Position numbers and translations under genes: made by a program. The notes under the pieces are model-generated. The model did no database searches. It was not told where the DNA came from and worked only from the letters and a program-made list of their open reading frames with translations. DNA of 64,000 bases, taken from Candidatus Lustribacter sp. Lineage in GTDB: Bacteria; Vulcanimicrobiota; Vulcanimicrobiia; Vulcanimicrobiales; Vulcanimicrobiaceae. The DNA is taken from contig OZ255842.1 in assembly GCA_965277805.1 (NCBI GenBank), positions 2,304,001-2,368,000 on the forward strand, read 5' to 3'. Shown one piece after another: positions 17,135-60,623 of the stretch; the stretch's first letter is position 1, and each line of letters begins with the position of its first letter.

Positions 17135-17156
17135 ATCCAGAACAGGAACCGATCTC

Positions 17157-19054: not shown

Positions 19055-19071
19055 CGAGGAGTACCGCTACC

Positions 19072-29100: not shown

Positions 29101-29188
29101 AGCGATCCCCTTCGCCGCCAGGAATTGGCGGCATATACATTACAATACAATATCGTAACGTAATTACCTGCCCCCCGGAGGTGCCCCT

Positions 29189-29824: not shown

Positions 29825-30407
29825 GCCACGCCGCAAAGCCGGACGGCCGCGCGATCCCGACGTTCACGATGCAATTCTGCGCGCCACCGCCGAGCTGATC
29901 GGCGAGAGCGGCTACGCCAACCTCAGCATCGAGGGCGTCGCGCAGCGCGCCGATGTCGGACGACCCTCAATCTACCGGCGCTGGCCGTCCAAACTGCACC
30001 TGGTCGAAGAGCTGATGAGCGCGGTGAGTGCGAGCGCGCCGCTGCCCGACACCGGTTCGCTGCGCGGCGATTTGCTCGCGCTCTATCGACTCTACGCGCG
30101 CACGCTGGATACGCCGGGCGGCCCGATCATTCCGGGACTCGTCGCCGAGGCGATGCACGATCTCGAACTCTCCGCGATCATCCAGCGCTACGTTGACGGG
30201 CGCCGCGCCGTTGCGCTGGGCGTGTTCGAGCGCGCGGTAGCGCGCGGCGAGATGCGTCCCGACGTCGATGCGGGAATGCTGATCGACTTCATCTCGGGCT
30301 TCTTCTGGTATCGCAAGCTGATCCGTCGCGCGCGCGTCCGAGCTGACGCGGCCGATCACTTCGTCGACGTCGTGCTGGCCGGCATCGCCGCCCGGAAGAA
30401 CCCTTGA
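29787..30407 (+). CDS. TetR/AcrR family regulator
   Basis: GRPRDP, SIEGVA.RA.V.RPSIYRRWPSK, PDTGSLRGDL. Confidence 0.92.
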   Translation: MRSNARSTPTPPKPRRKAGRPRDPDVHDAILRATAELIGESGYANLSIEGVAQRADVGRPSIYRRWPSKLHLVEELMSAVSASAPLPDTGSLRGDLLALYRLYARTLDTPGGPIIPGLVAEAMHDLELSAIIQRYVDGRRAVALGVFERAVARGEMRPDVDAGMLIDFISGFFWYRKLIRRARVRADAADHFVDVVLAGIAARKNP

Positions 30408-39693: not shown

Positions 39694-40650
39694 TTGCACG
39701 CTTTACTGGTCACGGCGCTCGTCGTGTGCGGTGCGTCCGCCGGCCGGTCGCAATCGAGCGACAAAATCGTCGTGAAGGAATCCTACCCCTCGAAAGTCGC
39801 CTCGTTTTGGCCCAACTACGTCGCCTCATCGCAGGGCTTCTACGCCAAAGAGGGGCTCGACGTCCAAGATATCATCGTCGATCCGAACGTCACCGTATCG
39901 ACGCTGATCGGAAACTCCGTCGATATGTCCTACGCCGACTCGACGCAGCTGCTGCTGGCGCTCCAAAAGGGGGCCGCCCTCGTAGCGGTCGGCTTGCAAA
40001 CCGAACGCAACCCCTACAGCTTGATGAGCTCGCCGTCGGTGAAGACGCTCGCGGATTTGAAGGGCAAGCGCATCGGCGCGGCCAGCGAGATCGACGTCTA
40101 CACCTACGTCATCAAGCAGATTTTGCGCAAGGCCAAAATCGATCCCGACAAGGACGTCGATTTCATCTACGGCGGCGGTCAAAATCAGCGCCTCACCGCA
40201 GCGGTCGGCGGCGCGATCCAAGCCGGGCTGTTCAGCCCGCCTTCGGATGCGAAGCTGCGCGACCTCGGCTTCAACACGCTCGCATTTGCGCCGGACTACG
40301 CGCCGAACCTGACGCTGAGCATGGAGACGGTGCGCAAAGACTTCACCGAGCAGCACCCCGATGTGCTGCGGAAGATCTTGCACGCGCAATTGGAAGCGGT
40401 CAAATGGCTGAACAACCCGGCCAATAAAGCCCAAGCGCTGCAGATCTTGGAAACGCAGACCGGCGCGAACCCGGCGGATGCCGGTCAAGCCTACGACTAC
40501 TACATCGGCAAACACATCTGGTCGGACGCCTGCATTCACACGCGCGGGATGATTGCCGTTTCCGACATCTTGCACACGACTGGACAACTGACGACGCTGA
40601 CGTCGCAAGACGTCCCGAAGTATGCCGACACGAGGTTCTGCTCGAAATGA
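39694..40650 (+). CDS. NitT/TauT-family substrate-binding protein (GQNQR/2-Cys subfamily)
   Basis: GFY.KEGLDV, DLKGKRIG, YGGGQNQR, LAFAPDY, DTRFCSK. Confidence 0.85.
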   Translation: MHALLVTALVVCGASAGRSQSSDKIVVKESYPSKVASFWPNYVASSQGFYAKEGLDVQDIIVDPNVTVSTLIGNSVDMSYADSTQLLLALQKGAALVAVGLQTERNPYSLMSSPSVKTLADLKGKRIGAASEIDVYTYVIKQILRKAKIDPDKDVDFIYGGGQNQRLTAAVGGAIQAGLFSPPSDAKLRDLGFNTLAFAPDYAPNLTLSMETVRKDFTEQHPDVLRKILHAQLEAVKWLNNPANKAQALQILETQTGANPADAGQAYDYYIGKHIWSDACIHTRGMIAVSDILHTTGQLTTLTSQDVPKYADTRFCSK

Positions 40651-41954
40651 TCACGCAAGCCGAGAACGATCGTCTCACGCGCGTCGGACCGGGTACGCCG
40701 GCCGGAAATCTCATGCGCCGCTACTGGCACCCCGTTGCCGCCAAGGCGCAATTGCTCGAGCGCAACGTGATGCCGGTGCGTATCTTCGGTGAAGACCTCG
40801 TGCTTTTTCTCGACGGCCAAGGCCGTCCCGGGCTCGTCTCCGATCGCTGCGCGCACCGCCGCGTGAAACTCGAACACGGCTACACCAACGACGCCGGCAT
40901 CGTGTGTCCGTATCACGGCTGGACCTACAATGCCGGGGGCCGCTGCGTGGCGCAGCCCGGCGAGCCGCCGGAGAGCACGTTCAAAGATAAGATCACGATC
41001 GCGTCCTATCCGGTGCAAGAATTGGCCGGCCTGATGTTCGCCTATCTCGGGCCGCTGCCGGCGCCGCTCTTGCCGCGCTGGGACCGCCTCGTCTGGGACA
41101 ACGTCTATCGCGTGATCGGCTTCGTGAAGATTCCGTGCAACTGGCTGCAGTGCATGGAGAACACCCCCGATCCGGTGCACACCGAATATCTCCACGGCCA
41201 CTACTTCAAGCATCTGCTCGACAAGAGCAAGAGCACCGACGACCGCAGCCGCAAACTGGCCGAAGGCTTCACCACCCACTTCCTCAAGCATGACTACGCG
41301 ATCGGCAAGTACGGCGTCGATCGTCGCTGGCTGCTCGAAGGCCAATCGACCGACAAGGACACCTGGTCGAAGCCGCAGCCGCTCGTCTTTCCCGACATTC
41401 ACTGCACGTCGGGCGGCGGCCGCCACACCTTCGGCTGGCGCATGCCGATCGACGATGAAAACACGATGGAAGTGTACGTGCGTTCGTTCGATCCCGGTCC
41501 GGGCGTCACGGTGCCCGTTCAGGATCCGGTACCGTATCTCGAAGTCGAGATGGTCGATGAAAACGGGCGCTTCACGGCGTTGAATTCAGTCACCGGCCAA
41601 GACGTGATGGCGTGGGTCTCGCAGGGTACGGTTCTCGACCGTACCGAAGAGCGTCTCGGCGATACCGATCGCGGCGTGATCTTGTTCCGGCAATTGCTCA
41701 AGGCCCAAATCGACGCGGTCGAAGCGGGCCGCGATCCGATCAACGTCTTCCGCGATCCCGCCGAGAACCAATGCCTCGATCTCCCCGTGCCGTGGGATCG
41801 CGGTTATGCGTGGGGGTACGGCAAGGACGGCAGTTACGTTCGCGGTTCGATCACCGCCGCCGACCCGCTGCCCGAGCATCTCAAGAACGAGATCGAAGAC
41901 CTCTTCGTCCGCGCCGCTGAGAGCCGTCAGCGCCCCGCCTCAGCGATCGCCTAA
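40647..41954 (+). CDS. Rieske non-heme iron oxygenase alpha subunit (phthalate 4,5-dioxygenase/LigX type)
   Basis: LTRVGPGTP.G..MRRYW.P, CAHR, CPYHGW, ENTPDPVH..YLH, QD..AW..QG, E.LG..DRG. Confidence 0.9.
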   Translation: MITQAENDRLTRVGPGTPAGNLMRRYWHPVAAKAQLLERNVMPVRIFGEDLVLFLDGQGRPGLVSDRCAHRRVKLEHGYTNDAGIVCPYHGWTYNAGGRCVAQPGEPPESTFKDKITIASYPVQELAGLMFAYLGPLPAPLLPRWDRLVWDNVYRVIGFVKIPCNWLQCMENTPDPVHTEYLHGHYFKHLLDKSKSTDDRSRKLAEGFTTHFLKHDYAIGKYGVDRRWLLEGQSTDKDTWSKPQPLVFPDIHCTSGGGRHTFGWRMPIDDENTMEVYVRSFDPGPGVTVPVQDPVPYLEVEMVDENGRFTALNSVTGQDVMAWVSQGTVLDRTEERLGDTDRGVILFRQLLKAQIDAVEAGRDPINVFRDPAENQCLDLPVPWDRGYAWGYGKDGSYVRGSITAADPLPEHLKNEIEDLFVRAAESRQRPASAIA

Positions 41955-42792: not shown

Positions 42793-43622
42793 CGTCGACG
42801 GTTGCACCGGCGCTGCCGAAGCTCTCGATCGAGCATCTCTCGAAGAGCTATCGCAAGGGCGATCAGTCGGTCGAAGCCCTGCGCGACGTGAGCATCGATA
42901 TCGCCGGCGGCGAGTTCGTCTCGATCGTCGGCGCGTCGGGCTGCGGCAAGACGACGCTGCTGCGTATGCTCGACGGCTTGATCGCGCCGAGTTCGGGCAG
43001 CATCGCGCTCGATCAGAAGCCGATCGACGGGCCGGGATACGGGCGCGCCTTCGTCTTTCAACAAGACCGTCTGCTGCCATGGCGCAACGTGCTCACCAAC
43101 GTCATGCTGGGCACGGAGATCCAAGGGCACAAGGCACCGGCCGATCGCGCGCGTGCGCTGCAGTTCATCGAACTGGTCGGTCTGAGCGGTTTCGAGAAGC
43201 ATTATCCGCACGAGCTCTCGGGCGGTATGCGTCAGCGCGTCAACCTGGCGCGCGCGCTCACCGCGGAACCCGAGGTACTGCTGCTCGACGAACCGTTCGC
43301 TTCGCTCGATGCGCAGACGCGCGAGATCATGCAAGCGGAGTTGCTGCGGGTCTGGCGCGAGACGCGCAAGACGGCGATCTTCGTCACGCACCAAATCGAC
43401 GAAGCCGTCTACCTCTCGGATCGCGTGGTGGTGCTCACCGTTCGTCCGGGGCGCATCAAGGAGATCGTGAAGATCGACCTGCCGCGCCCGCGCGAACTAT
43501 CGGTGAAGCGCACCCCGGCGTTCGTCGAATATACGAGCCACATCTGGCAGCTCATCGAGCAAGAGGTTCAGGAAAGCATCGGCCTCGAGAAGGCCGCCGC
43601 GGCGGCCCGGCACCTTACTTAG
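42789..43622 (+). CDS. NitT/TauT-family ABC ATP-binding protein
   Basis: GASGCGKTT, LSGGMRQR, LDEPFASLDAQTRE, VTHQ; ATG at 42789. Confidence 0.92.
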   Translation: MTSTVAPALPKLSIEHLSKSYRKGDQSVEALRDVSIDIAGGEFVSIVGASGCGKTTLLRMLDGLIAPSSGSIALDQKPIDGPGYGRAFVFQQDRLLPWRNVLTNVMLGTEIQGHKAPADRARALQFIELVGLSGFEKHYPHELSGGMRQRVNLARALTAEPEVLLLDEPFASLDAQTREIMQAELLRVWRETRKTAIFVTHQIDEAVYLSDRVVVLTVRPGRIKEIVKIDLPRPRELSVKRTPAFVEYTSHIWQLIEQEVQESIGLEKAAAAARHLT

Positions 43623-44589
43623 AACACCACTCCGTGTCGACCAGCTTGGCCGAATCGCCCGGCTTGAGCGTGGTCAAGCGGTTTTGCTGCTGCAGGATCG
43701 ACACCAGCGTATCTAACCGCGACGGCACGGCGCACTTATCGGTGAGCACGTGCTTTTGCACCCAGTAGCTGTAGGCCGCTTCCGATTCTTCCTGGGTGCT
43801 GTTGGTCGCGGCGGCAAGGATATCGATCGCCTTCGCCTTGTTGGCCGGATTGTTGAGCCACGCGAGCGATTCGGCTTGGACTTTGAGGAACTTCCGCAGC
43901 GCGTCCGGGTGCTGCTGCGCCCAATCCTTGCGCACGGCGAGCAGGCTGAGCGCGAGGCTCGGCACGACGTCGGGCGTAAACGCGAGCGAGGTCATGCCGC
44001 GCGCCTTCAGCTTTTCATCTGCGGGCGATGAGAACAAACCCGCGTCGATCGCGCCTCCGAGCATCGCCGCTAAGCGCTGGCTCTGGCCGCCGCCGTACAC
44101 CCAATCGACGTCCTTTTCCGGATCGAGCCCGGCTTTCTTGAGGATGTTCTTGAGCACGGTCGTGTAGATCTCGATCGGCGACGCCGCACCGATGCGTTTC
44201 CCCTTGAGCTGCGCGATGGTTTTGATGCCCGGTGCGGCCATGAGGTTGTAAGGATTGCGATCGGCGACCGGTCCCACGGCGACGATGTTCGCGCCCTTGT
44301 CGACGCCGAGCACGAAGCCGGTTGAATCGATCGACACGACGTCGAGCGAGCCGCCGATCAATGCCGTGACGGTCGTCGGCGGATCGACGAGCGTCTGCTG
44401 CACGTCCAAGCCTTCGTTCTTGTAGAAGCCTTCGGCTTGGCCGACGAAGTACGCCCAATCGACCGGCGTCTGCGACATCGCGCCGCGCTTGACCACCGTC
44501 AGCGGCGCATCGGCAGCGCTCGCGGACACCAGCGATGCGGCAAACAAGAGCGCGAAGCCGGCAACGGCGGCACGGGCGATTTTCTTCAC
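43615..44589 (-). CDS. NitT/TauT-family substrate-binding protein (GQNQR/2-Cys subfamily)
   Basis: GFYKNEGLDV, YGGGQSQR, LAFTPD, DTEWCSK. Confidence 0.85.
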   Translation of the reverse strand: MKKIARAAVAGFALLFAASLVSASAADAPLTVVKRGAMSQTPVDWAYFVGQAEGFYKNEGLDVQQTLVDPPTTVTALIGGSLDVVSIDSTGFVLGVDKGANIVAVGPVADRNPYNLMAAPGIKTIAQLKGKRIGAASPIEIYTTVLKNILKKAGLDPEKDVDWVYGGGQSQRLAAMLGGAIDAGLFSSPADEKLKARGMTSLAFTPDVVPSLALSLLAVRKDWAQQHPDALRKFLKVQAESLAWLNNPANKAKAIDILAAATNSTQEESEAAYSYWVQKHVLTDKCAVPSRLDTLVSILQQQNRLTTLKPGDSAKLVDTEWCSK

Positions 44590-45689
44590 GAGAACTCCTC
44601 AATGCGGAATCGTTCCGACGACCAGAACGGCCCGGTGTACCCGCACAGCCGGAAGATCGCCGTATGCGCGATGTCGCGCACGAACTTGATGTCGACTTGC
44701 GGACGGCCCGTCTCATAGCCCGGCGGTCCGAAGTAGCCGTGATCGAGCAGCTCGGTGCGAACCGCGGTGAGCCGGTCGAGGCCCGCTTCGTCGACGTTGA
44801 GCCGCAGCTCGGCGACCATGCCGGCAAAGTCCGCGCGATACGCATGTTCGGCGTTCGGAGCGCGGCGCTCGGCGAGATAATATGCGGTGGTCTGTACGGC
44901 GTCCATGAGCAAGCCGGCGGAAAGATGAATCTGTGCGACCACGTTCGATCCGGTGATCTGATCGAACACGACGTCAGCCGGAAAGCCGCCTTCGGCGAGG
45001 GGGACGACGCCTTCGCCGATCGCCGCGAACGCGCGCAACAGTACCGCGTCGTCGGCGGGAAACGGCGAATGCGGAAAGCGTCCGACCCGGCGGTAACCGC
45101 GGTAGTGCGTGGCCGAAAGCAGCTTGTCGCCCGCGGCGTACTGCTCGATCGCGATGATCGGCGTCGCGATGCCGGCGATCAACGAGATCACCATCTCGAG
45201 CCGATCACGTTCTTTCGGACTGAGCACGCCTTCGATCGCAACGGCCATGCGCAGGTCGTGATGGCTCGTCGCGTCGGGTGAATGACCTTGAAACACGACC
45301 GTACGGCCGGCAAAGCGGCTCACGCCGTTCCAGCTCGTACCGGAGAGAATCACGCGCGTTGAAGCGACCGGCAGACCGGCCGCACCGCCGTAGGAAAGGT
45401 GAAGTTCGGCACAGTTGAAGAGCCGCGCGCCGTTTGCCGACGTGCCGGTAAACGTGACGGGTGAACTGCGCCACGAACCGTCGGCGGCTTCGAGTTTACC
45501 GCCCGGCTCGCCGTACCGTTCTTCCGGAATCGCGAACGTGGAAATATCTTCGAAGCGCGCGCTGATCGAGCTGCTCGATACCGTCACCGATACGTTGCCG
45601 CGAGATTGTTCGCCCGACTTGGCCGTGTACACGGCTTCGCACGGAGCCGTTGTAAACGACTCCGTCGCGCCGCGTTCAGCGATCGACAT
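44586..45689 (-). CDS. Protein of unknown function (paralog of 52411..53529)
   Basis: 367-aa ORF coupled to both neighbours; shares HHD.RMA, PHSPF, IH.SA and PGYETGRPQ.DIKF.RDIA with 52411..53529. Confidence 0.85.
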   Translation of the reverse strand: MSIAERGATESFTTAPCEAVYTAKSGEQSRGNVSVTVSSSSISARFEDISTFAIPEERYGEPGGKLEAADGSWRSSPVTFTGTSANGARLFNCAELHLSYGGAAGLPVASTRVILSGTSWNGVSRFAGRTVVFQGHSPDATSHHDLRMAVAIEGVLSPKERDRLEMVISLIAGIATPIIAIEQYAAGDKLLSATHYRGYRRVGRFPHSPFPADDAVLLRAFAAIGEGVVPLAEGGFPADVVFDQITGSNVVAQIHLSAGLLMDAVQTTAYYLAERRAPNAEHAYRADFAGMVAELRLNVDEAGLDRLTAVRTELLDHGYFGPPGYETGRPQVDIKFVRDIAHTAIFRLCGYTGPFWSSERFRIEEFS

Positions 45690-46154
45690 CTAGCTGAAGA
45701 ATTTGCCGGGCAGCGGAATGACGGGCTGCTCTTTGTTCTCCACCGAATCGCCGGCGAACGGTTTGCCCTCGAGGTCGACGCGGTCGTCAAAGTTCGTCCA
45801 GCCCTCGCGCTTCGCGCCGACGCGCAGGAGCACCAGATTCTCATCGCCGCTGCTGAGGAACCAGTAGTAGCTGCCCGAGGGAATCATGATGCCGTCGTAC
45901 TTGCGCAGCACGCGAATCTCTTCGCTCTCACCAAGCCGGAACGTCGCCTCACCGGCGAGGATCACGAACATATGATCTTCTTGGCTGTGCGTGTGGATCG
46001 CGTTTTCACCGCCGGCCGCATAGACTTTCAAGTGGGCGGCCAAGAGATCGGTTTTGGCGAGCAAGTCCATCGTGCGGCCTTGCGCGAGCAACTGACCTTT
46101 CAGCGTGAACGGCTTTGCTTCCGGAGCGGCCTTTTGGGTTTGCGTGCTCATCAA
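45690..46154 (-). CDS. Cupin domain protein
   Basis: GGENAIHTHSQEDHMFVILAGE and IMIPSG cupin motifs. Confidence 0.85.
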   Translation of the reverse strand: MMSTQTQKAAPEAKPFTLKGQLLAQGRTMDLLAKTDLLAAHLKVYAAGGENAIHTHSQEDHMFVILAGEATFRLGESEEIRVLRKYDGIMIPSGSYYWFLSSGDENLVLLRVGAKREGWTNFDDRVDLEGKPFAGDSVENKEQPVIPLPGKFFS

Positions 46155-46167
46155 TCGTCTCTTTCTG

Positions 46168-46890
46168 CTAGGCGGTAACGGCGGTGGGAGCGGCTCCCGA
46201 AGAGAGGAGCTTTCCGAGGCCGGACGTGGTGGGGTGCCCGATTTGGGCCAGCGACCACCACGCGGTGGCCTGGGTTTGTTCGATCACGGGGATGTTCTTT
46301 TCATCTTCGAGCACCCGCGAGATGCCGAGCATATTGCCGCGCGCAAAGATTACGACGCCGTCGCACTGCGGAAAGCGCGGCAGCGTTTCCCGCGCCAGCG
46401 CATCGTAGTCGGCCGCCGTCTTGGCGTTCACTTCATCTGCGTTGCGGCAGCCGAGCCCGACCGCCGCCTCGACGGCGAGGCCCACGTCGCGGCAAAACCC
46501 GACGATCTTGTCGTTCGACGGCTCGTCGTACTGCGTCACGAGCAGCGCATGACGCACGCCCAGATGCAGGCAGGCGAGCGCCGTCGCCGTGAGGCTCGAA
46601 ACGATCGGCACGCCGCGTTCGCGCGCGAGGCTTCCGAACAGCTCTTGCTCGGCCGCATAGCCGCGTCGCGCCGCATTCGGAATGCCCATGACCACGATGG
46701 CTTTCGCGCCCTCATCCGCGAGCACGTGCACCGCACCCGGAATCGCCGCGTTCGAACGCGCTTCTTCGCCCGGCTTGCCGTTGCGGTTGTTCAGCGTCGC
46801 AACGATTGCGGTCACGTCGGTGGGGAGCACCTCGTTGAGATCCGAGGGCAGTTGAACGACCGACGGCGAGATCGATCCAATTTTCGGCAT
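46168..46890 (-). CDS. Asp/Glu racemase-fold (maleate isomerase/arylmalonate decarboxylase-like) protein
   Basis: KIG.I.P, P.V....A...A...LG, T.Y....N, LE.E..IPVI...QA..W; canonical Cys positions not evident. Confidence 0.7.
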   Translation of the reverse strand: MPKIGSISPSVVQLPSDLNEVLPTDVTAIVATLNNRNGKPGEEARSNAAIPGAVHVLADEGAKAIVVMGIPNAARRGYAAEQELFGSLARERGVPIVSSLTATALACLHLGVRHALLVTQYDEPSNDKIVGFCRDVGLAVEAAVGLGCRNADEVNAKTAADYDALARETLPRFPQCDGVVIFARGNMLGISRVLEDEKNIPVIEQTQATAWWSLAQIGHPTTSGLGKLLSSGAAPTAVTA

Positions 46891-46893
46891 CGA

Positions 46894-48198
46894 TCAGGCT
46901 TCGACCAGCATGTTCTTCCGGCGCGCCGCCTCGACGTAGAGATCTTCGATTTCGTCCGCAACGTGTTCGGGCAAACGATCGGCGGCGGTAACCGAACCGC
47001 GAATGTACGAACCGTCCGCAGCGTAACCCCACGCATGACCGCGATCGAGCACGGTCGGCAGATCGATCTGCACGTTCTCAGCCGGATCGCGGAACACGTT
47101 GATCGGCGTCATGCCGGCTTCGACGCGTTCGATCTGATCGCGAATCAGCTGACGGTAGGCGATGATGCCGCGATCGGAATCACCGAGGCGCTCCTTGGTG
47201 CGGTCCATGATCTCGCCTTGCATCGTCCAGGCCATGAAGTCTTGACCGTTGACGGTGTCGAGCGAGAGAAAATTCCCCGTCTCGTCGCGGACCGGCATCT
47301 CGTAGTAGGGCACGACCTCTTGCTTGGGCACTTTCACGCCGTTGCCGGGCTGGAACGAACGCAGCACCACTTGCATCGTGTGGGTATCATCGATCGGCAC
47401 GCGCCAGCCGAAATCGTGGCGGCCCGAACCCGACGTCACGTGCGTGTTCGGGAAAACGAGCGGCGAGCTCGACGTCCACGTGTTCGCCGTTTCGCTTTGG
47501 CCTTCGATCAGCCAGCCGCGATGCAGGCCGTACTTGTGCATGCCGTACTCGTGCTTGATGATCGGTTTCTGAAAGCCCGATGCGAGCGCCCAGCGCGGAT
47601 CGCTCTTCGGAATCCCCTGTTCGCCGAGCCAGGTTTGAAAAAACTCGCCGTGCAGATAGATCGTGTGCATCGCATCGGGCGTGTTCTCCATGCACTGCAG
47701 CCAGTTGCACGGCACGATCGCATACGCGATGACGCGGTAGACGTCGTCCCACACGAGACGGTCCCAGTTCGGCAGCAGCGGTACCGGATCGGGCCCGATG
47801 TACGCAAACACGAGCCCGGCCAATTCCTGGACGTGATAGGCGCCGATTTGGACCTTGTCTTTGAACGTGCTGCCGGCGGGCTCGGCCGGTTGATCGACGC
47901 ATTGGCCGGTCGTATCGAACGTCCAGCCGTGATAGGGGCAACGGATGCCCGCGTCGTTCGTCCGCGCGCAGTCAAGCTTGACCTGACGGTGCGCGCAGCG
48001 ATCGTCGACCAGGCCCATACGATTCTTGCCATCGAGGAAGAGCACCATGTCTTGACCGTAGAGCCGGATCGGCATGACGCGGCGCTCGCGCAGCTGCTGC
48101 ATCGGCGCGACCGGCTGCCAATAGTGCCGGAAGAGCTTCCCGACCGGCGTCCCGGGGCCGACGCGGGTGAGGCGCTCGTTTTCTTCAGCGGTCAACAT
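46894..48198 (-). CDS. Rieske oxygenase alpha subunit (close paralog of 40647..41954)
   Basis: CAHR, CPYHGW, ENTPDAMH..YLH, QD..AW..QG; ATG at 48198 (MLTAEEN). Confidence 0.9.
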   Translation of the reverse strand: MLTAEENERLTRVGPGTPVGKLFRHYWQPVAPMQQLRERRVMPIRLYGQDMVLFLDGKNRMGLVDDRCAHRQVKLDCARTNDAGIRCPYHGWTFDTTGQCVDQPAEPAGSTFKDKVQIGAYHVQELAGLVFAYIGPDPVPLLPNWDRLVWDDVYRVIAYAIVPCNWLQCMENTPDAMHTIYLHGEFFQTWLGEQGIPKSDPRWALASGFQKPIIKHEYGMHKYGLHRGWLIEGQSETANTWTSSSPLVFPNTHVTSGSGRHDFGWRVPIDDTHTMQVVLRSFQPGNGVKVPKQEVVPYYEMPVRDETGNFLSLDTVNGQDFMAWTMQGEIMDRTKERLGDSDRGIIAYRQLIRDQIERVEAGMTPINVFRDPAENVQIDLPTVLDRGHAWGYAADGSYIRGSVTAADRLPEHVADEIEDLYVEAARRKNMLVEA

Positions 48199-48344
48199 GT
48201 GGTGGGGCTCCTTCTGAAATACTTCTTTTAGAGTACGCCCCGGGCTGGACCCGTTCAATTCTTATACCGGCGGCATCCATTCCGTTACCTCATGTATCAA
48301 CGCAGCGCAAGGTCGCCGGTCCGGCCGCGGGAATTAGGCCGCCC

Positions 48345-49124
48345 ATGCCAGCCGTAGATGCCGCGAACGCCGCGCGCTTGATCGATCTCGTCACCGCCAG
48401 CCGGATCCTCGAAAACGAGGGCATCCTCGACAGCTACGGCCACGTCACCGTGCGTTCTGCCACGGATCCGGGACATTTTTTCATGCCGCGCGCCTTGCCG
48501 CCCGGCTCGATCACGGCCGGCGATTTGGTCGAACTCGATCTCGAGTGCACGCCGGTGCTGCCGAACGCGCCGCGTCTCAACGGCGAGCGGTTCATCCACT
48601 CCGAGATCTACAAAGCGCGGCCCGACGTGCAGTGCGTGATTCACTCGCACTCGGCGGCCGTAATCCCGTTCGCCGTGGCCGGCGTGCCGCTGCGTCCGGT
48701 GCTCGCACAAGGCGGCTTCTTGCCGCCCGAAACGCCGGTCTTTGAGATTCGCGAAGCGACGGGGACCGTGGCCTCGCGCGGCATGCTCGTGACGAACAGC
48801 GCGCTCGGCGCGTTTCTCGCAAAAAAACTCGGCGCAGCGCCCGCGATTCTGCTGCGCGGCCACGGTGATGCCGTCGTCGGCACGAGCGTGAAACAAGCCG
48901 TCGTGCGCGCGCTCTACGTATCGCTGAACGCGCGCGTGCAGTCGGAAGCGATGCGACTCAGCCCCACTATCACCGCGATGGACGACGCCGAACTCGAGTA
49001 TAATGCGAAAGAAAACTTCGACGTCGACCGCCCGTGGGCGAATTTCAAACGCCGCTTGACCGAAGGCTACTACGCTCGCGGCCGCGAGCTTCCGAAAGGC
49101 TTCGAGCTCGACCCGATTACCTAA
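48345..49124 (+). CDS. Class II aldolase/adducin family protein (possible decarboxylase)
   Basis: D.YGHV.VR, ERFIHSEIYKARPDV..VIHSHS, LLRGHG. Confidence 0.85.
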   Translation: MPAVDAANAARLIDLVTASRILENEGILDSYGHVTVRSATDPGHFFMPRALPPGSITAGDLVELDLECTPVLPNAPRLNGERFIHSEIYKARPDVQCVIHSHSAAVIPFAVAGVPLRPVLAQGGFLPPETPVFEIREATGTVASRGMLVTNSALGAFLAKKLGAAPAILLRGHGDAVVGTSVKQAVVRALYVSLNARVQSEAMRLSPTITAMDDAELEYNAKENFDVDRPWANFKRRLTEGYYARGRELPKGFELDPIT

Positions 49125-50137
49125 ACCGGCGAGAGCTCTTTCGCGGGCGCATCGAGCTTCATGAAGCGCTTGATGTTGCCGCTGAGGATCTTCTCTTTGT
49201 CTTCCCGCGAGAGCGCGATCGCCTCGAACAACTCTAGCGCGTAGTGCGAATCCCAGCACGGGTAATCCGTGCCGTACATCACGTGATCCACGCCGAAGTA
49301 TTCGATCGCAAACCGCATGCCCGCCGTGTGCGGCGAGACCATGTCGGTGTACATGCGCTTCAAGTACGTGCTCGGCAACTCCGGCAGCTTTGCGCCGGTG
49401 CCGTTCTTGTCGAGACGTCCCGCTTGATACGGCAGCGCACCGCCGGTGTGCGATACGACGACCTTCAAGTTCGGATAGCGTTCCATGATGCCCGAGAAGA
49501 TCAACCGCGACGTCGCAACGGTCGCCTCCATGATGCGGCCTACGCTGCGATGCAGCGCACCGCCGTAGCCGGCCAGCGGATCGGCGAAGAGCGCATCGGT
49601 CGGATGCATGAAGAGCGGGATGCCCAACTGTTCGCAGCGCGCATAGAACGGCTCGAGCCGCGGCGCGGCGATGTCCGGATCGTCGCCGATGCTGCCCGGA
49701 ATATTGACGCCGAGCAAGCCTAAACGACCGACGGCATCTTCGAGCACGTCGATTGCAACTTGGGTGTCGGTTAGCGGCACCGCCGCGGTGGCCCAAAAAC
49801 GCCCGGGGTGCGAACGCACCGCGCCGGCCATCTCTTCGTTCCACTGGATCGCCGCTTCTTTGCCTTCGGCGGCCGGCACATCGGAGAAGTGCACCGAGAA
49901 CGGCCCGATCGACCCGAGCGCCGAGACGTGATGCCCCAGCGTGTCCATGTACGTGAAATGCCCGTCCAGATCGTACCAAACCGCCGGCACCGCCAGCACA
50001 TACGTGCAGCCGGGCGCCCGATAGTAATTGAACCCGCCCTTACCGTCAGGCTCCGCCCGCGGATACCCCTTACGCTTGCACAGATCCTCAAAGATCGACC
50101 GCGGCCACCAATGAAAATGCGACTCAATAATGTCCAC
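49121..50137 (-). CDS. Amidohydrolase_2 family protein, ACMSD-like decarboxylase
   Basis: SHFH, LFMHP, SG..ERYP.L..SH.GG.LPY..GR, YGTDYP; GTG at 50137 after GGAGG. Confidence 0.85.
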   Translation of the reverse strand: MDIIESHFHWWPRSIFEDLCKRKGYPRAEPDGKGGFNYYRAPGCTYVLAVPAVWYDLDGHFTYMDTLGHHVSALGSIGPFSVHFSDVPAAEGKEAAIQWNEEMAGAVRSHPGRFWATAAVPLTDTQVAIDVLEDAVGRLGLLGVNIPGSIGDDPDIAAPRLEPFYARCEQLGIPLFMHPTDALFADPLAGYGGALHRSVGRIMEATVATSRLIFSGIMERYPNLKVVVSHTGGALPYQAGRLDKNGTGAKLPELPSTYLKRMYTDMVSPHTAGMRFAIEYFGVDHVMYGTDYPCWDSHYALELFEAIALSREDKEKILSGNIKRFMKLDAPAKELSPV

Positions 50138-50197
50138 GGCCAAAACCTCCGGAACAAGCGCTGCCAGGTCTAGCAAGGTTCAAGCGCATCCCCCCTT

Positions 50198-50257
50198 TGT
50201 CATGCCGAGCGGAGCGCCGTAGGGCGCGGAGACGAGGTACGCGCCATAATCATGACA
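50198..50257 (+). repeat. REP-like intergenic repeat, copy 3, with terminal inverted repeat
   Basis: TGTCATGCCGAGCGGAGCGCCGTAGGGCGCGGAGACGAGGTACGCGCCATAATCATGACA; ends TGTCATG/CATGACA; hairpin GCGCC-GTAG-GGCGC. Confidence 0.7.
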
Positions 50258-50293
50258 CCAGCCGGAGCAATGCCCCCAACGGAAGACCGCCAA

Positions 50294-51268
50294 CTACCGC
50301 GGGCACCACTCCGCATCGATATACTTATCCACATCCGCCGGCGTCGACTTCGTCTGCCCGGTATCATGCATCATCGCCAAATCCGCTTGCATCCCCGGCT
50401 TCATGACACAATAATTCGTCGGAAAATCCCGCACCTTGACGACGTACTCGTTATACGCATCGCCCGCCTCATACGCCGAAACGTTCGTGGCCTTCTCCAA
50501 AATCGCAAGCGCATCGGCCTTATTCGCCGGATCGGCCAGCCACCGGCTCGCCTCCGCCATCGCCTTCAAATATCCGCGCATCGCCGCCGGATTCTTCACG
50601 GCCCAATCCCGCCGCACCGCCGTAATACTCAACTGCAAATATTTATAATAATCCGGCGTGAACGCGAGCGCATGGAACCCGCTCTCCGCAAGTTTCGTAT
50701 CCTGCGGCGCCGCAAAGAGCCCAGCCTGAACCGCCCCGCCGGCCACTGCCGCATAGCGCTGATTCTGCCCGCCGCCGTACACGAGATCAACGTCCTTATC
50801 CGGATCGAGCCCGCCCTTGCGAATGATCTGCTTGATTACGAGCGTGTACAACTCGATCGGCGACACCGCGGCGACGTGCTTCCCCGCGAGATCCTTGACG
50901 GTTTTCACCGACCCCGGCACCATCAAGTGATACGGCATGCGGTCGGCGCCCGAGCCCGTCGCAACGACTCCCGCGCCCTTGTCGATTCCGAGGATCAGCT
51001 GCGTCGCCGGCGTGAGCGCAACATCAACGGATCCGCCGATGAGCGCCGGCACGATCGCGACCGGATCGAGCGCGATGAGTTGCACGTCCAGCCCTTCGCG
51101 TGCAAAGAAGCCGCGCGATTCGGCGATGAAGTGCGGCCAGTTCTGCGCCGTGATCGAGGGAGTGGCAAAGCGGATCACCGTCTTGGCCGGCGTGTCGGCC
51201 GATGCGCGCGCGCCGAGCAGGGCGATCGCAGCCGCAGCGATCGTCAGGACACGTCGAGCGCCGTTCAC
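50294..51268 (-). CDS. NitT/TauT-family substrate-binding protein (GQNQR/2-Cys subfamily)
   Basis: GFFAREGLDV, YGGGQNQRYAA, LAFTPDY, DAEWCPR; GTG at 51268 overlaps the Rieske stop. Confidence 0.85.
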   Translation of the reverse strand: MNGARRVLTIAAAAIALLGARASADTPAKTVIRFATPSITAQNWPHFIAESRGFFAREGLDVQLIALDPVAIVPALIGGSVDVALTPATQLILGIDKGAGVVATGSGADRMPYHLMVPGSVKTVKDLAGKHVAAVSPIELYTLVIKQIIRKGGLDPDKDVDLVYGGGQNQRYAAVAGGAVQAGLFAAPQDTKLAESGFHALAFTPDYYKYLQLSITAVRRDWAVKNPAAMRGYLKAMAEASRWLADPANKADALAILEKATNVSAYEAGDAYNEYVVKVRDFPTNYCVMKPGMQADLAMMHDTGQTKSTPADVDKYIDAEWCPR

Positions 51269-52407
51269 TTGGGTTCGAGTTCGTCCGTCAAGTGGAATTG
51301 AGTCAGCGGTTTGCCCTCGGCCAAGGCCGCCAACTCGCGCCGCCAAAGCTTGCGGAAATGCGCCTCCGCGATGTCGGAGCTCCCCAAATGCTCGTCTTCG
51401 CGCGTCGAGACCGGCCCCTGCGCAACCTGAGCGACGTAATCCTCAACCGCTTCGATGTGCGTGCGATCCTTGATATCGCGCAGGCGCAACGTCCCCGCCA
51501 GCACCTGTTCGGCCAGCACCGGAATCACCGAGCGGTCGTAAAAACTCGCCGTACGCCCCGCAAGAATCTTCTCCGCCGCTTCACCCGTAACCGGAATCAG
51601 TGTGACGCGGTACGTCACGTGGCTCTCATCGTCGATCGGCACCCGGAACGAAACGTGCAGCGAATGTGCGACGCCCTTTGCCATGTTGATCGCCCGCGGC
51701 ACGATGTATCCGACGTTGGGCATGATCTTGTGCGCGACGTTTTCCTTGGCGTCGTTCGGCCAGCGCGAATACGCGGTATGCCCCCACGGCGTATCTTCAA
51801 CCCGCACTTCGGGCACACCGGTGATGCCCTTCTCCTCCATCAGGTCCCGATGGACGAAGCTGAAGTGCAGCGCGGAATTCTCGAGCGAGAAGAAATAGTT
51901 CGCCGGCATCACGTCGACCGTCACGTCGCGAATGCCATCCCGCTCCATCGCCTTGAAGCGCCACATCGGCGGCGGCTCGCCCTCGCCGAAATAGACGAAG
52001 ATCAAGCCCAGGTATTCTTCGGTCGGATATCCGTCGATGTTCAGCGCCGGCGTCGCGCGCGCTTTTTCCGACGGTCGCTCGATCACTTGACCCTTCGGAT
52101 CGAACACCCAGCCGTGATAGAAACAGCGGATGCAGCTGCCTTCGACAAAGCCGACGCTCAGTTGGGCTCCGCGATGCGAACAGCGGAAGCCGACCGCATG
52201 CGCGACGCCGTCTTCATCGCGGTAGAGCGTGAAGTCTTGGCTCATGATCTTCACGGGCTTGGCATCGCCCGTCTCGAGATCTTCCGAACGGTACACCGGC
52301 TGCCAGAAGGTGCGCATGTAACGCCCCGCGATCGTCCCGGGCGCGGTATGCACGAATGCGTTCTTGTGAACGCGGACTTCCTCGGTCGAGTGGAGCTCGA
52401 TAGCCAT
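51265..52407 (-). CDS. Rieske oxygenase alpha subunit (LigX-like, divergent)
   Basis: PGT.AGRYMR.FWQPV, CSHRG, CFYHGW, ENSALH...VH, RVPIDD, ED.VAQ..QG, EHLG.SD. Confidence 0.88.
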   Translation of the reverse strand: MAIELHSTEEVRVHKNAFVHTAPGTIAGRYMRTFWQPVYRSEDLETGDAKPVKIMSQDFTLYRDEDGVAHAVGFRCSHRGAQLSVGFVEGSCIRCFYHGWVFDPKGQVIERPSEKARATPALNIDGYPTEEYLGLIFVYFGEGEPPPMWRFKAMERDGIRDVTVDVMPANYFFSLENSALHFSFVHRDLMEEKGITGVPEVRVEDTPWGHTAYSRWPNDAKENVAHKIMPNVGYIVPRAINMAKGVAHSLHVSFRVPIDDESHVTYRVTLIPVTGEAAEKILAGRTASFYDRSVIPVLAEQVLAGTLRLRDIKDRTHIEAVEDYVAQVAQGPVSTREDEHLGSSDIAEAHFRKLWRRELAALAEGKPLTQFHLTDELEPK

Positions 52408-52410
52408 TGG

Positions 52411-53529
52411 TTACGATTTCCCCGCAAGTTCGAGCGTGGTGACGTGTTCGGCGCCGTAATACGCGCCGCTGAAGCCGCATGATTTCAGGACAACCGCATC
52501 AGCGATATCGCGCAAGAACTTGATGTCCTTTTGCGGCCGCCCGGTTTCGTAGCCCGGATCGTGAAAGTACCCGCGTTCGAGCAGCTCTGCCCGCACGCGT
52601 TCGTAACGCTCGCGATCGTCCGGCGAGAGCCCGAAGTCGTAGCCGTGCGCGGCAGCGGTCACGTTTGCCAGCGCCAGCATCTGCGCGGACATGTGAATGT
52701 CGCGCACGTTGTACGAGCACACGATCAGGTCGACGACGCGCCGCAGCGGGAAGGCTCCTTCTTGGCTCGCGCGCAGCGCGCTTGCGAGCATCGCAAAGGC
52801 CTTCGCTTTCGTCTCAACCGCGACGCCGGTGAACGGGCTATGCGGCGACCAGCCGACCCGCGGCGTCCAGCGCCGGTGCTCGGTCTCGATGAGGCCTCCG
52901 GCGGCATCGTACCGCTCGACGCAGACAACGGCCGTCTCGACGCCCTCAACAAATCCAAGCGAACGGGCGATGTCCGCGATCTCGGAATGCGGGAGATTTC
53001 CGCTCGCAACCATCGCCATGCGCTTGTCGTGATGATTTGCAACGTCGTGCGTCAGCGCGTGCACGATCGCGTCGTTGCCGGCAACCCTCGCGGATCCCGA
53101 CCACGCAGCGCCGGCAAATACGATGCGCGTGAGGGCAATCGTCCCCTTCGCGCTGCGGTTCAGCAGCAGCGAACCGTCGAAGAGCACCTCGCCCGCCGTC
53201 TGCGGCAACCCGCCGTAGCCTTTGACCGCCTCCCAACGTCCGTCGAGCGAGCGGATACGTGCCGGACCGGCCGGCCGCTTCGCAAACGCCGCGTCATCCT
53301 TCGGCACGAAACGCACCGAGATCGACGTCGGCGAGAGCACGACCGATGCGTTGCCGGCCGTACTCCATACCGGCGTCGCACGGCTCTCCGGAGCGACGTT
53401 GTCCTCGCGCGTGAACGTCGTATCGACGGGCTTAGAGGTGAAAACCTCGAGTTGCGCTGCACCGTCCAAGGCAGCGCGTTCTTCGACCGCGCGACCCGCG
53501 ATGCCGGTAGAAACTACATCCTGTGACAC
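52411..53529 (-). CDS. Protein of unknown function (paralog of 44586..45689)
   Basis: 372-aa ORF ending 3 bp before the Rieske start; shares motif blocks with 44586..45689. Confidence 0.85.
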   Translation of the reverse strand: MSQDVVSTGIAGRAVEERAALDGAAQLEVFTSKPVDTTFTREDNVAPESRATPVWSTAGNASVVLSPTSISVRFVPKDDAAFAKRPAGPARIRSLDGRWEAVKGYGGLPQTAGEVLFDGSLLLNRSAKGTIALTRIVFAGAAWSGSARVAGNDAIVHALTHDVANHHDKRMAMVASGNLPHSEIADIARSLGFVEGVETAVVCVERYDAAGGLIETEHRRWTPRVGWSPHSPFTGVAVETKAKAFAMLASALRASQEGAFPLRRVVDLIVCSYNVRDIHMSAQMLALANVTAAAHGYDFGLSPDDRERYERVRAELLERGYFHDPGYETGRPQKDIKFLRDIADAVVLKSCGFSGAYYGAEHVTTLELAGKS

Positions 53530-53553
53530 GCGCCTAGTCTAGCACCGGGCCCC

Positions 53554-54549
53554 TCAGAGCGCCAGGGTCGCCGCCGCGAACAGCTCCTCGGCATCGACGC
53601 GCCGGCTCGTGATGTGCTGTTCGTGCAGGTAGCGCAGCAGCGTATCCAGTTCTTTGCGCGACCGGCGCACGCTGTATGGCCACGGATCGACCGCGACGGC
53701 ATCGCGCACGCTCTTCGCGACGATCCCGGCACCGACGTACGGGCCGAGCCCGTCGACCAAGCGTCGCAGCACGCGCTCCGTTGCGGCATTGAACGCATCG
53801 ACGATGTTCAACGCCGCCCACGGGTAACGCTCGAGCACCGAGCGGCGCACCACGACGGTATGGTTCACCGGATACATGCCGGTCGCCGCGTGATAACGGA
53901 TCGCTTCCGCTGCAACGTCCGGATAGAGCGTGCGCACGCGCGAATCGGCGTGCAAATCGGCGCGGCTGCGGTCGACCAGATTGCGCGCGGTGATGTAGTG
54001 AAAGAGCACGTCGAGTTCGCCGTCGAGCAGCATCCGGTCGAGGCTCTTGTCCGGCGCGAGAAACGAAAAGCGCAGATCCGCCGGTGGAACGAAACCGAGT
54101 GCGCCGCCGAGCGAGCGATCCGCCTCGCGTTCCATCACCCACGTCAGGTCGCTCGGCTGCACGCCGTATTCATCCGCGAGCACGCCCCGCGCCCACACCA
54201 CCGAGGTTTGAATGTAATCCGGCACGCCCGCGCGCATACCGCGCAGATCGGCCGGCGTTTGGATTCCGGCATCGGCCCGCACCAGCAACTGCGTGTGATA
54301 GAACCGGCGCAACGTGAATACCGGCAGGGCGACCCAATCGGATTTTCCGTCGGCCACGAGGCACGAGAGCGCCGAGAGTGACATCTCCGAGACGTCGAAC
54401 TCGCCGAACTCGAGTTGCCGCCAGAACATTTCGGCAGATTCCATCGGGCTTAGTCGCAGCGTGATGCCGGCAGGAGCAACGCTGCCGTCGAGCAGCGGCC
54501 GCGTCCGTTCGTTCACCGTGAACGCCGCCGAGAGCTCGATGTTGCTCAA
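53554..54549 (-). CDS. 4,5-dihydroxyphthalate decarboxylase-like protein
   Basis: EMFWRQL...EFDVSEMSLS, GVPDY.QT..VW.RG.L.DEYGV, YPVNHTVVVR, DPWPY. Confidence 0.8.
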   Translation of the reverse strand: MSNIELSAAFTVNERTRPLLDGSVAPAGITLRLSPMESAEMFWRQLEFGEFDVSEMSLSALSCLVADGKSDWVALPVFTLRRFYHTQLLVRADAGIQTPADLRGMRAGVPDYIQTSVVWARGVLADEYGVQPSDLTWVMEREADRSLGGALGFVPPADLRFSFLAPDKSLDRMLLDGELDVLFHYITARNLVDRSRADLHADSRVRTLYPDVAAEAIRYHAATGMYPVNHTVVVRRSVLERYPWAALNIVDAFNAATERVLRRLVDGLGPYVGAGIVAKSVRDAVAVDPWPYSVRRSRKELDTLLRYLHEQHITSRRVDAEELFAAATLAL

Positions 54550-60131: not shown

Positions 60132-60623
60132 TTGCGCGAACTGCCCTATCCGGAGTGGCCGTTCGGAGGCGGGCACGTGTGCCCGACCATCACGGAAGAT
60201 GTAGCCGCCCGCCGCGATGAGGACGTGCAAATACTCGTTTCCGCGATGTTCGATGCCTGCCGCGATCTGTCGAACGCGCCGAACGGCCTGCTTCCCTATA
60301 CCGAGAAGTGCCTGGACGACCTCCGCAAGTATTCGCCGCTCGCGAGCGATGCCGAGATCGTGCGCCTCAATGAACGGCTAGCAGGTGAAATCGCGCCCTT
60401 TCCGGTACCGACAGCCGAGGGCATCGTCAATGCGCTTGCCGTGGTCACGACGCGATTTCCGGAGCTGTTGGAATACGACCCACTGATCGTGTGGGATCTC
60501 TCGTTCGCGCGTCAGTTAATGCGTGAACGCGGGCTGGTGGTTACCAAGCGAGCCGGTGACCCCACCGCGCCGAAGGTGCGCCCGGCAGGCGCTCTGAATG
60601 CGGACAATTCCCGGGCCAGGTAG
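60132..60623 (+). pseudogene. Probable C-terminal remnant of an NMT1/TauA-like binding protein
   Basis: Ends P.PTAEGI.NAL......PEL...DP...WDLSF.R.L, typical of a binding-protein C-terminus. No signal peptide or N-lobe; in-frame TGA at 60093-60095. Confidence 0.45.

What the first reader, a model, noticed from the sequence alone, without database searches (positions are those of the whole stretch)
44586..53529. Two paralogs of an unrecognised His-motif protein family, each inside a Rieske-oxygenase operon (best candidate for a new system)
Seen: 44586..45689 and 52411..53529 match no enzyme family I recognise, yet they align with each other in blocks. The blocks are GN.SV..S..SIS.RF, DG.W, TR....G..W.G..R.AG, HHD(L/K)RMA, E.Y........H, RVG..PHSPF, IH(L/M)SA, VR.ELL..GYF..PGYETGRPQ.DIKF.RDIA and CG(Y/F).G. 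Five His are retained although the rest has diverged. One gene lies in Rieske-racemase-like-cupin-X-binding protein; the other lies in decarboxylase-like-X-Rieske-binding protein. Both are tightly coupled to their neighbours. Inference: an unannotated, possibly metal-binding partner of these oxygenases, acting as a product-processing enzyme, accessory subunit or electron-supply component. The layout is a beta-rich N-terminus, a helical C-terminus and a terminal GYxG, reminiscent of ApeA-type HEPN proteins. An R-x5-H occurs only in the first copy (RTELLDH versus RAELLER), which suggests a defence-nuclease-like scaffold possibly repurposed for metabolism.
Basis: partly seen in the sequence, partly recalled or inferred. 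Interest (0 to 1): 0.85.

Follow-up and report, generated by a model that had tools for sequence, protein, structure and literature searches.

The report
Disarmed antiphage RNase in catabolic operon
These two genes encode a shortened relative of ApeA-type antiphage RNases that lacks the catalytic histidine and sits, across two bacterial phyla, inside one conserved aromatic-degradation gene cluster, where it likely works as a small-molecule-binding or catalytic partner rather than as a defence nuclease.

Summary
Both ORFs are on the minus strand, are 33% identical, share every quoted block and are under purifying selection (dN/dS 0.14).

The family is not fold-less. The C-terminal domain matches HEPN structures (Z 8.2-8.7), and a homolog's model matches ApeA_NTD1/HEPN_Apea and YopA clusters over its full length (TM about 0.77-0.79). 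The nearest outside relatives keep R-[DNH]-x3-H (21 of 21), and 9 of 12 of their loci have defence or mobile neighbours. The family has D/E at that His in 90 of 91 sequences, has lost about 40 residues, and has gained its own invariant His/Arg and PGYETGRPQ motifs.

Of 22 further loci, 20 carry genes of the same catabolic cluster. The tightest partner is a cysteine-less arylmalonate-decarboxylase-like gene, not a particular Rieske gene.

Verdict: a real, rare, apparently undescribed domestication of a defence RNase scaffold into catabolism. The mechanism is inferred: substrate, metal binding, His clustering and binding partners are untested. MtlR is a precedent for an inactive HEPN in a catabolic operon.

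The parts
44586..45689 (-). Copy 1 (X1, P0001, 367 aa): ApeA/YopA-like protein with beta-rich N-terminal and alpha/beta middle domains and a C-terminal HEPN domain lacking the catalytic His
44637..44999 (-). HEPN-fold domain of copy 1 (residues about 231-351)
   Evidence: 1jog Z 8.7, Csm6 8jbc Z 8.7, HEPN toxins 8xdj 8.5, 7ae2 8.3, 5yep 8.2
44742..44759 (-). Degenerate HEPN motif R311-T-E-L-L-D316 (intact relatives: R-[DNH]-x3-H)
44697..44723 (-). Family-specific near-invariant loop PGYETGRPQ (323-331) just after the former catalytic helix
45255..45263 (-). Family-specific HHD (143-145), candidate new ligand or metal site
   Evidence: role inferred
45060..45089 (-). Family-specific RVGxxPHSPF loop (201-210; H207 in 91 of 91) between the middle and HEPN domains
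52411..53529 (-). Copy 2 (X2, P0002, 372 aa), same family, different subclade
52576..52593 (-). Degenerate HEPN motif of copy 2, R-A-E-L-L-E
46168..46890 (-). Arylmalonate-decarboxylase/maleate-isomerase-like protein with Ala at the catalytic Cys column (71 of 71); tightest co-inherited partner
46894..48195 (-). Rieske oxygenase alpha subunit of the phthalate 4,5-dioxygenase/LigXa-like group (Rieske1)
45690..46151 (-). Cupin, present in only some loci
43615..44589 (-). NMT1/THI5-like ABC binding protein, overlapping the copy-1 stop
48345..49124 (+). Class II aldolase-fold protein, closest solved relative Mlr6791 (2z7b); recurrent member of the cluster
51265..52407 (-). Second Rieske oxygenase (Rieske2); orthologs at 56-72% in L009, L029, L084
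50294..51268 (-). NMT1-like binding protein after Rieske2 (GTG start overlapping the Rieske2 stop inferred from the sequence)
53554..54549 (-). 4,5-dihydroxyphthalate-decarboxylase-like protein upstream of copy 2

Best explanation
Both genes encode an ApeA/YopA-type HEPN protein that lacks the RNase catalytic His and is inherited as a fixed part of a Rieske-oxygenase catabolic unit, where it likely binds an anionic pathway intermediate in a new His/Arg site and likely turns it over together with the cysteine-less arylmalonate-decarboxylase-like neighbour. Shown: the fold, the loss of the R-[DNH]-x3-H motif, the new invariant residues, purifying selection, the conserved cluster and the co-inheritance. 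Inferred: descent from a defence RNase by a roughly 40-residue deletion and active-site remodelling; an aromatic or N-heteroaromatic acid as substrate (from the neighbours); that the new residues form one pocket; and that the protein is catalytic rather than regulatory. My confidence in the domestication part alone is about 0.85. The figure given is for the whole statement including the catalytic role.
For: Fold: residues 231-351 match HEPN domains at the top of a 48,161-chain search; full-length TM 0.77-0.79 to ApeA_NTD1/HEPN_Apea and YopA clusters for homolog P0031; feature score 0.97. Motif: catalytic column D 62, E 28, G 1 of 91 against H in 21 of 21 intact relatives; the next residue after R is V/T/A/S/L in 82 of 91 against D/N/H in 21 of 21; R311 itself is replaced in 4 of 91. 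Family-specific conserved polar residues: H143, H144, R200, R201, R204, H207, Y325, T327, R329, Q331, K335, D339, E359. Context: 20 of 22 loci carry cluster genes and 13 of 22 the Rieske1 and/or AMDase-like ortholog, against 0 of 12 intact-relative loci; G934, found independently, repeats the cluster. The family and the AMDase-like ortholog were found in the same genomes in four samples: 2 of 201, 1 of 301, 4 of 121, 3 of 8. dN/dS 0.09-0.17 in five pairs; GC3 0.76-0.78, close to the neighbours. In L011, L014 and L084 the co-oriented run ends Rieske1, AMDase-like, X before an opposite-strand gene. LysR regulators already lie beside the cluster in L009, L014 and L084.
Against: No activity, substrate or ligand is shown. 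dN/dS (0.14) is two to three times that of neighbouring genes (0.04-0.07), which suits an accessory or regulatory protein as well. Three RR-type relatives (P0085-P0087) lack both HHD and PGYETGRPQ, and one may share a contig with an AMDase-like gene (same longest-contig length), so those motifs may not be essential to the cluster role. HEPN Z-scores of 8-8.7 are modest for helical bundles, and Foldseek found nothing. Some HEPN families with the His lost are proposed to use another His (PMC3710099 section 6). L012 has a SMODS cyclase gene about 6.5 kb upstream. Two intact relatives also sit beside metabolic genes (L054, L057). The genome samples were centred on genomes chosen for having the family, so only G934 is an independent co-occurrence there.
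Confidence: 0.42

Rival explanations
1. A non-catalytic regulator, like MtlR: it senses a pathway metabolite or a partner protein and controls the operon through protein or RNA binding.
For: MtlR is an HEPN family that has partly lost the motif and lies in the mannitol operon (PMC3710099 passages). It acts through CRP and EII(Mtl) binding (PMC13421365 passages). ApeA proteins already couple a ligand pocket to the HEPN domain. dN/dS is higher than in the neighbouring enzymes.
Against: LysR genes lie beside several loci. There is no DNA-binding Pfam domain. The many invariant polar residues look more like a chemical site (inference).
Confidence: 0.23
2. A structural subunit of a multi-protein oxygenase complex with the Rieske alpha subunit and the cysteine-less AMDase-like protein, as the GST-like NdmE is thought to be in NdmCDE.
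For: Both X and the AMDase-like neighbour lack their ancestral catalytic residues. The three genes form a unit in L011, L014 and L084. Copy 2 and Rieske2 are missing together in G003. NdmE precedent (PMC4408171 passages).
Against: X tracks the adjacent Rieske poorly (rho 0.37), and it sits with two Rieske types that are only about 26% identical. No fusion with a Rieske or AMDase-like protein appeared among candidates of 173-818 aa.
Confidence: 0.17
3. Still an RNase, using another His: a metabolite-gated regulatory nuclease, or the toxin of an addiction pair with the AMDase-like protein that stabilises the mobile cluster.
For: R311 is kept in 87 of 91 and E313 in 91 of 91; a second R-x5-H (R201-H207) is nearly invariant. 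Alternative His sites are proposed for AbiV and AF0298. The distribution is patchy, as for mobile modules.
Against: The His and the polar residue after R are both lost, D and E interchange freely, and R is lost in 4. H255 is N in 20 of 91. None of the 22 loci shows the pair in a different gene context. Copy 2 has no AMDase-like gene of its own.
Confidence: 0.12
4. A dead defence gene that hitch-hikes in the cluster without function.
For: The canonical motif is lost; copy 2 is absent from the close relative G003.
Against: dN/dS is 0.09-0.17. There are invariant new motifs across about 35-40% identity, and retention in both Eremiobacterota and Alphaproteobacteria.
Confidence: 0.03

Closest known systems
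ApeA_NTD1 + HEPN_Apea proteins (PF18862, PF18739) and YopA-like proteins (PF26308, PF27216)
   Same: Whole-chain architecture: beta-rich N-terminal region plus C-terminal HEPN; TM 0.77-0.79 by query over about 345-357 residues; shared W73, R112, G117, G173, F210, P237, R311, G318, R338, G353 with the nearest intact relatives.
   Different: About 40 residues shorter between HEPN helices 2 and 3 (11 against 48-70); catalytic His replaced by D/E; new HHD, RVGxxPHSPF and PGYETGRPQ motifs; catabolic instead of defence context; below Pfam thresholds.
E. coli Ec1ApeA/Ec2ApeA antiphage RNases (bioRxiv 10.64898/2026.01.26.701840; 10.64898/2026.03.20.713152)
   Same: HEPN_ApeA family name; single chain with N-terminal, middle and HEPN domains; a ligand pocket apart from the catalytic site is the model for the new site (analogy only).
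   Different: About 600 aa, mostly helical, need the Rx4-6H motif, and cleave tRNA or phage RNA. No direct alignment to them was obtained here, so equivalence of the pocket is untested.
MtlR, mannitol operon repressor
   Same: HEPN-derived, motif largely lost, encoded inside a catabolic operon.
   Different: Different HEPN family with no Pfam match; stand-alone HEPN acting through CRP, EII(Mtl) and HPr; here two extra domains and a His/Arg-rich motif set.
NdmE of the NdmCDE N7-demethylase
   Same: An enzyme-family scaffold postulated to be a structural subunit of a Rieske-family system.
   Different: GST-like fold; binding shown there, untested here.
Phthalate 4,5-dioxygenase-type catabolic clusters
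   Same: Rieske1 matches 7fjl and 7fhr (E 1e-51, 1e-45); a dihydroxyphthalate-decarboxylase-like gene is present; LigAB lies nearby in L009, L029 and L086.
   Different: The match covers only residues 1-283. The cluster adds the cysteine-less AMDase-like gene, the HEPN-derived gene, an Mlr6791-like protein, an M24 hydrolase and NMT1-type uptake; the substrate is unknown.

Membership tests
HEPN superfamily (fold) | Four-helix HEPN core | tested here: met
   model residues 231-351 align to 1jog (Z 8.7, rmsd 3.4, 108 aligned), 8jbc (8.7, 3.1, 107), 8xdj (8.5, 3.3, 112), 7ae2 (8.3), 5yep (8.2); one search agrees.
HEPN RNases | Rx4-6H motif on helix 3 with His at the catalytic column | tested here: not met
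   D 62, E 28, G 1 of 91; H in 21 of 21 intact relatives; the adjacent column is H in 5 of 91.
HEPN RNases | Polar residue (N, D, H) right after the Arg | tested here: not met
   V 59, T 8, A 8, S 4, L 3 of 91 against D 10, N 10, H 1 of 21 (definition).
HEPN RNases | Alternative conserved His upstream (AbiV, AF0298 type) | tested here: inconclusive
   H255 68 of 91; H207 91 of 91 but in a loop before the HEPN helices; H342 86 of 91 but D in copy 2. No coordinates to place them.
HEPN RNases | Dimer with composite site; RNA cleavage | not testable with these tools
ApeA defence system | ApeA_NTD1 plus HEPN_Apea architecture | tested here: met
   Atlas structure and feature matches; the two Atlas searches of a call count as one source.
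ApeA defence system | Pfam PF18862/PF18739 or PADLOC score | tested here: not met
   No hit at E 0.1 or E 10. The nearest intact relatives also miss (best E 0.077; 0 of 12), so this test is weak.
ApeA defence system | Stand-alone gene in defence islands or mobile elements | tested here: not met
   20 of 22 loci are in the catabolic cluster; no match in phages, plasmids or viral contigs.
ApeA defence system | Activating ligand pocket; antiphage activity | not testable with these tools
   No ApeA structure was listed in the fold searches.
YopA-like proteins | YopA_M and YopA_C domains | tested here: inconclusive
   TM 0.79 to YopA clusters; no hit in the local Pfam copy, which may not hold these models.
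MtlR | MtlR family sequence | tested here: not met
   No Pfam family at E 0.1; the likeness is one of situation, not membership.
Rieske electron-transfer components | Fe-S Cys/His motif or flavin/NAD-binding domain | tested here: not met
   No such family; one conserved Cys (C349, 86 of 91). The N-terminal split-barrel likeness to flavin reductases and PilZ (Z up to 7.2) lies in a region shared with intact relatives.
Accessory subunit of a Rieske oxygenase (NdmE-like role) | Physical complex with the oxygenase | not testable with these tools

The most novel reading that the evidence does not exclude
An antiphage HEPN RNase was rebuilt into a small-molecule enzyme. The old catalytic His was dropped and a new His/Arg, possibly metal, site was formed. 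It works with a second disarmed scaffold (the cysteine-less AMDase-like protein) on the product of a Rieske oxygenase in an undescribed aromatic or N-heteroaromatic degradation pathway that moves between phyla. To my recall no HEPN-derived catabolic enzyme is known.
Probability: 0.35. Interest if true: 0.85.

Novelty: new variant of a known kind. Interest (0 to 1): 0.66.

Why it matters
It is a traceable case of a defence toxin scaffold domesticated for metabolism. Intact relatives in defence islands, an intermediate RR-type clade and the remodelled family can all be aligned residue by residue. The cluster holds two proteins that have lost their ancestral catalytic residues yet are kept together under selection, which points to unrecognised chemistry or regulation. 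One carrier is a cultured type strain (Novosphingobium flavum, L014), so gene deletion and substrate screening are directly possible. It also warns that structure-based calls of ApeA defence systems would mislabel this family.

Tried and rejected
Family libraries: Pfam, PADLOC and NCBIfam gave no hit for either copy. PDB sequence searches with A1 and A2 gave only E above 0.5. Foldseek against PDB and BFVD gave no meaningful match (best TM by query 0.19 and 0.23 among the rows listed). The middle domain folded alone (pLDDT 91) gave a best Z of 5.5 to generic alpha/beta sandwiches, inconclusive. No ApeA structure appeared in those lists.

Mobile collections: no match in phages, plasmids or viral contigs.

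Complex prediction: not available, so neither the homodimer nor binding to the Rieske or AMDase-like protein was tested. Promoter and terminator scans were at or below chance.

Fusion: P0070 (632 aa, X plus class II aldolase) leaves the family sequence just after the RLCG motif and looks like a frameshift read-through of adjacent genes. It was dropped from the counts. Searches for longer proteins were not run.

Rejected: the copy-1 R-x5-H as catalytic; an electron-carrier role; local duplication (AU p 7e-5, group named after seeing a tree); chance adjacency (96 Rieske-like motifs put 12% of this genome within 4 kb of one, but orthology of the neighbours across phyla excludes it).

Earlier scan notes: three look-ups returned nothing.
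Full report
1. Observation. Both ORFs are real and on the minus strand. They align at 33% identity, 165 bits, against at most 21.9 bits for 200 shuffles. All quoted blocks are present. There is no third copy in the genome. Against G004, dN/dS is 0.138 for each copy; neighbouring genes give 0.043-0.072, and three more family pairs give 0.086, 0.111 and 0.167. GC3 is 0.76-0.78 against 0.79-0.84 for five neighbours. Close relatives are titled Eremiobacteraeota/Vulcanimicrobiota (L007, L008).

2. Fold. Curated libraries gave nothing. The ESM Atlas placed P0001 and P0031 beside ApeA_NTD1/HEPN_Apea and YopA clusters at 0.95-0.97, and the Atlas model of P0031 matched such clusters at TM 0.77-0.79 by query over 345-357 residues; those families are carried by 11-94% of cluster members. 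An AlphaFold2 model from 71 sequences (pLDDT 92.4) has a beta barrel, an alpha/beta middle domain and a helical C-terminus. Against 48,161 chains the top rows for residues 231-351 are HEPN or HEPN-like domains at Z 8.2-8.7. These Z values are modest alone, but they agree with the Atlas and with sequence. Foldseek and the middle domain alone were uninformative.

3. Intact relatives and the lost motif. An index-free search of 1.84 billion representatives gave 31 hits, 13 at E up to 1e-30. Ten of those 13 are family members, and 3 are an RR-type sister group lacking HHD and PGYETGRPQ. Weaker hits of 343-467 aa carry RDELLHNGY-type motifs. A profile search of 401 genomes of the phylum gave 18 more places outside G000, of which I fetched 12. 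In one alignment of 91 family, 3 RR-type and 21 intact sequences (P0070 left out; some duplicates and fragments included), the catalytic column is H in 21 of 21, D/E/G in 91 of 91 and R in 3 of 3. The residue after the Arg is D/N/H in all intact relatives and mostly V/T/A in the family. The stretch between HEPN helices 2 and 3 spans 11 residues against 48-70, and H244, invariant in intact relatives, survives in 14 of 91. By the definition in PMC3710099 (section 6 read) the canonical RNase site is gone, though that paper allows alternative His sites. Family-specific conserved residues are listed. Word-based searches favour sequences with the PGYETGRPQ motif, so its invariance is partly a sampling effect. 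A quick tree of 59 rows puts family plus RR-type on one branch (SH-aLRT 100) and the family on one branch (99), with a midpoint root among intact forms (the careful search did not finish). The direction from defence to metabolism is inferred from this tree, the deletion and the greater diversity of intact forms. The copy-1 clade and copy 2 do not form one clade (p-AU 7e-5, group named after seeing the tree).

4. Context. Pattern scans gave 9 genome and 17 metagenome loci. Leaving out L007, L008, L016 and L017 (89-98% identical to copy 1), 20 of 22 carry cluster genes, and 13 carry the Rieske1 and/or AMDase-like ortholog (Pfam for 113 selected ORFs). Two of the 20 (L015, L021) rest on ABC-transporter genes only. 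L028 and L031 have no upstream DNA. L013/L024 and L022/L023 are near-duplicates. Across 14 loci, the Rieske next to the AMDase-like gene is 54-97% identical to the window's and the AMDase-like protein 43-94%. Recurrent extras are an Mlr6791-like aldolase-fold protein, an M24 hydrolase, Rieske2, NMT1-type uptake and LigAB. None of 12 intact-relative loci has these genes. Nine of 12 have defence or mobile neighbours among the 69 neighbour ORFs I scanned: HicAB, AbiEii, Abi_C, type III R-M, Tn7-like genes, KAP NTPase, Mrr, DarT, AbiU2, a sub-threshold SduA_C hit, integrases and IS. Their GC3 is 0.47-0.73. Against my reading: L012 has a SMODS gene 6.5 kb away, and L054 and L057 border metabolic genes.

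5. The tightest partner. The AMDase-like protein has Ala at the column of the arylmalonate decarboxylase Cys in 71 of 71 sequences, followed by an invariant Arg (the catalytic role of that Cys is recalled). It was found in the same genomes as the family in four samples (2 of 201, 1 of 301, 4 of 121, 3 of 8), never alone; only G934 was not known beforehand. Protein searches returned 73 family and 74 AMDase-like clusters, with 13 longest-contig lengths in common. Pairwise identities over 14 loci correlate at rho 0.89 for X with AMDase-like (0 of 2000 permutations as high) and 0.37 for X with the adjacent Rieske. Shared ancestry inflates both and Rieske paralog swaps lower the second, so this shows co-inheritance, not contact. 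G003 lacks window 50152-53555, that is copy 2, Rieske2 and its binding protein together (genome 72% complete).

6. Mechanism. I favour a pathway enzyme or catalytic partner using the new His/Arg residues (0.42), over an MtlR-like regulator (0.23), a structural subunit (0.17), an alternative-site RNase or addiction toxin (0.12) and a dead passenger (0.03). The substrate is unknown. The neighbours suggest ring hydroxylation, decarboxylation and C-N hydrolysis of an aromatic or N-heteroaromatic acid (inference).

7. Literature. Read: 10.64898/2026.01.26.701840, parts 1-2 of 7 and passages; 10.64898/2026.03.20.713152, passages; PMC3710099, passages and section 6; PMC4408171, passages; PMC13421365, passages (it does not mention HEPN). 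No supplements were seen. Searches for a prior description: ApeA+HEPN, 18 papers, 15 listed, none on catabolism by title or abstract start; ApeA/HEPN with dioxygenase or aromatic degradation, 0; YopA/SPbeta/HEPN, 0; inactive or repurposed HEPN with Rieske, 15 of 496 listed, all on CRISPR; YopA in Bacillus, 1 listing; N. flavum, 9 listings, none on this cluster by title. The library omits most subscription papers.

8. Verdict. Real and rare. It is a new variant of ApeA-type HEPN proteins that fails the RNase-motif and defence-context tests and lives in a conserved catabolic unit. Interest 0.66; 0.85 if it proves to be an enzyme.

Noticed in passing
window 46168-46890 (-): The arylmalonate-decarboxylase-like protein belongs to a tight family of about 73 clusters that has Ala-Arg at the catalytic Cys column and invariant R36; sources call it maleate isomerase, which is probably wrong.
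   Followed up: partly
window 50152-53555; L007 3412-3535: A 3.4 kb block (binding protein, Rieske2, copy 2) is absent from the close relative G003; deletion or assembly not distinguished.
   Followed up: partly
P0085, P0086, P0087: A sister clade with R-x-E-L-L-R-R-G, no HHD and no PGYETGRPQ; a possible evolutionary intermediate. Contexts could not be read.
   Followed up: partly
L053-L064: Intact-motif ApeA/YopA-like HEPN genes in relatives, mostly in defence or mobile regions, missed by Pfam (12 of 12) and, for the two tested, by NCBIfam: candidate unannotated defence RNases.
   Followed up: partly
whole genome G000: 96 Rieske-type motif matches and at least seven class II aldolase-like genes; the window is part of a large catabolic region, including a third Rieske at 40647-41954 that is 61% identical to Rieske1.
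   Followed up: partly
window 25358-30404; L022 6076-8145: Hydantoinase/oxoprolinase, flavin reductase and TetR genes lie 14-19 kb from copy 1 here, and the same families lie directly beside the family gene in L022, so they may belong to the same pathway.
   Followed up: no
window 60132-60623 (+): A 163-aa ORF with no Pfam family between LysR and IclR regulators.
   Followed up: no
window 16142-19815 (+): ORFs of 330, 315 and 248 aa with no Pfam hit at E 1e-6; the first two resemble the decarboxylase-like gene by eye.
   Followed up: no
L012 456-2676: A SMODS cyclase and two unassigned ORFs, a CBASS-like locus, border the catabolic cluster in one Stellaceae genome.
   Followed up: no
P0070: A 632-aa record joining the family protein to the class II aldolase, probably a frameshift artefact.
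   Followed up: partly
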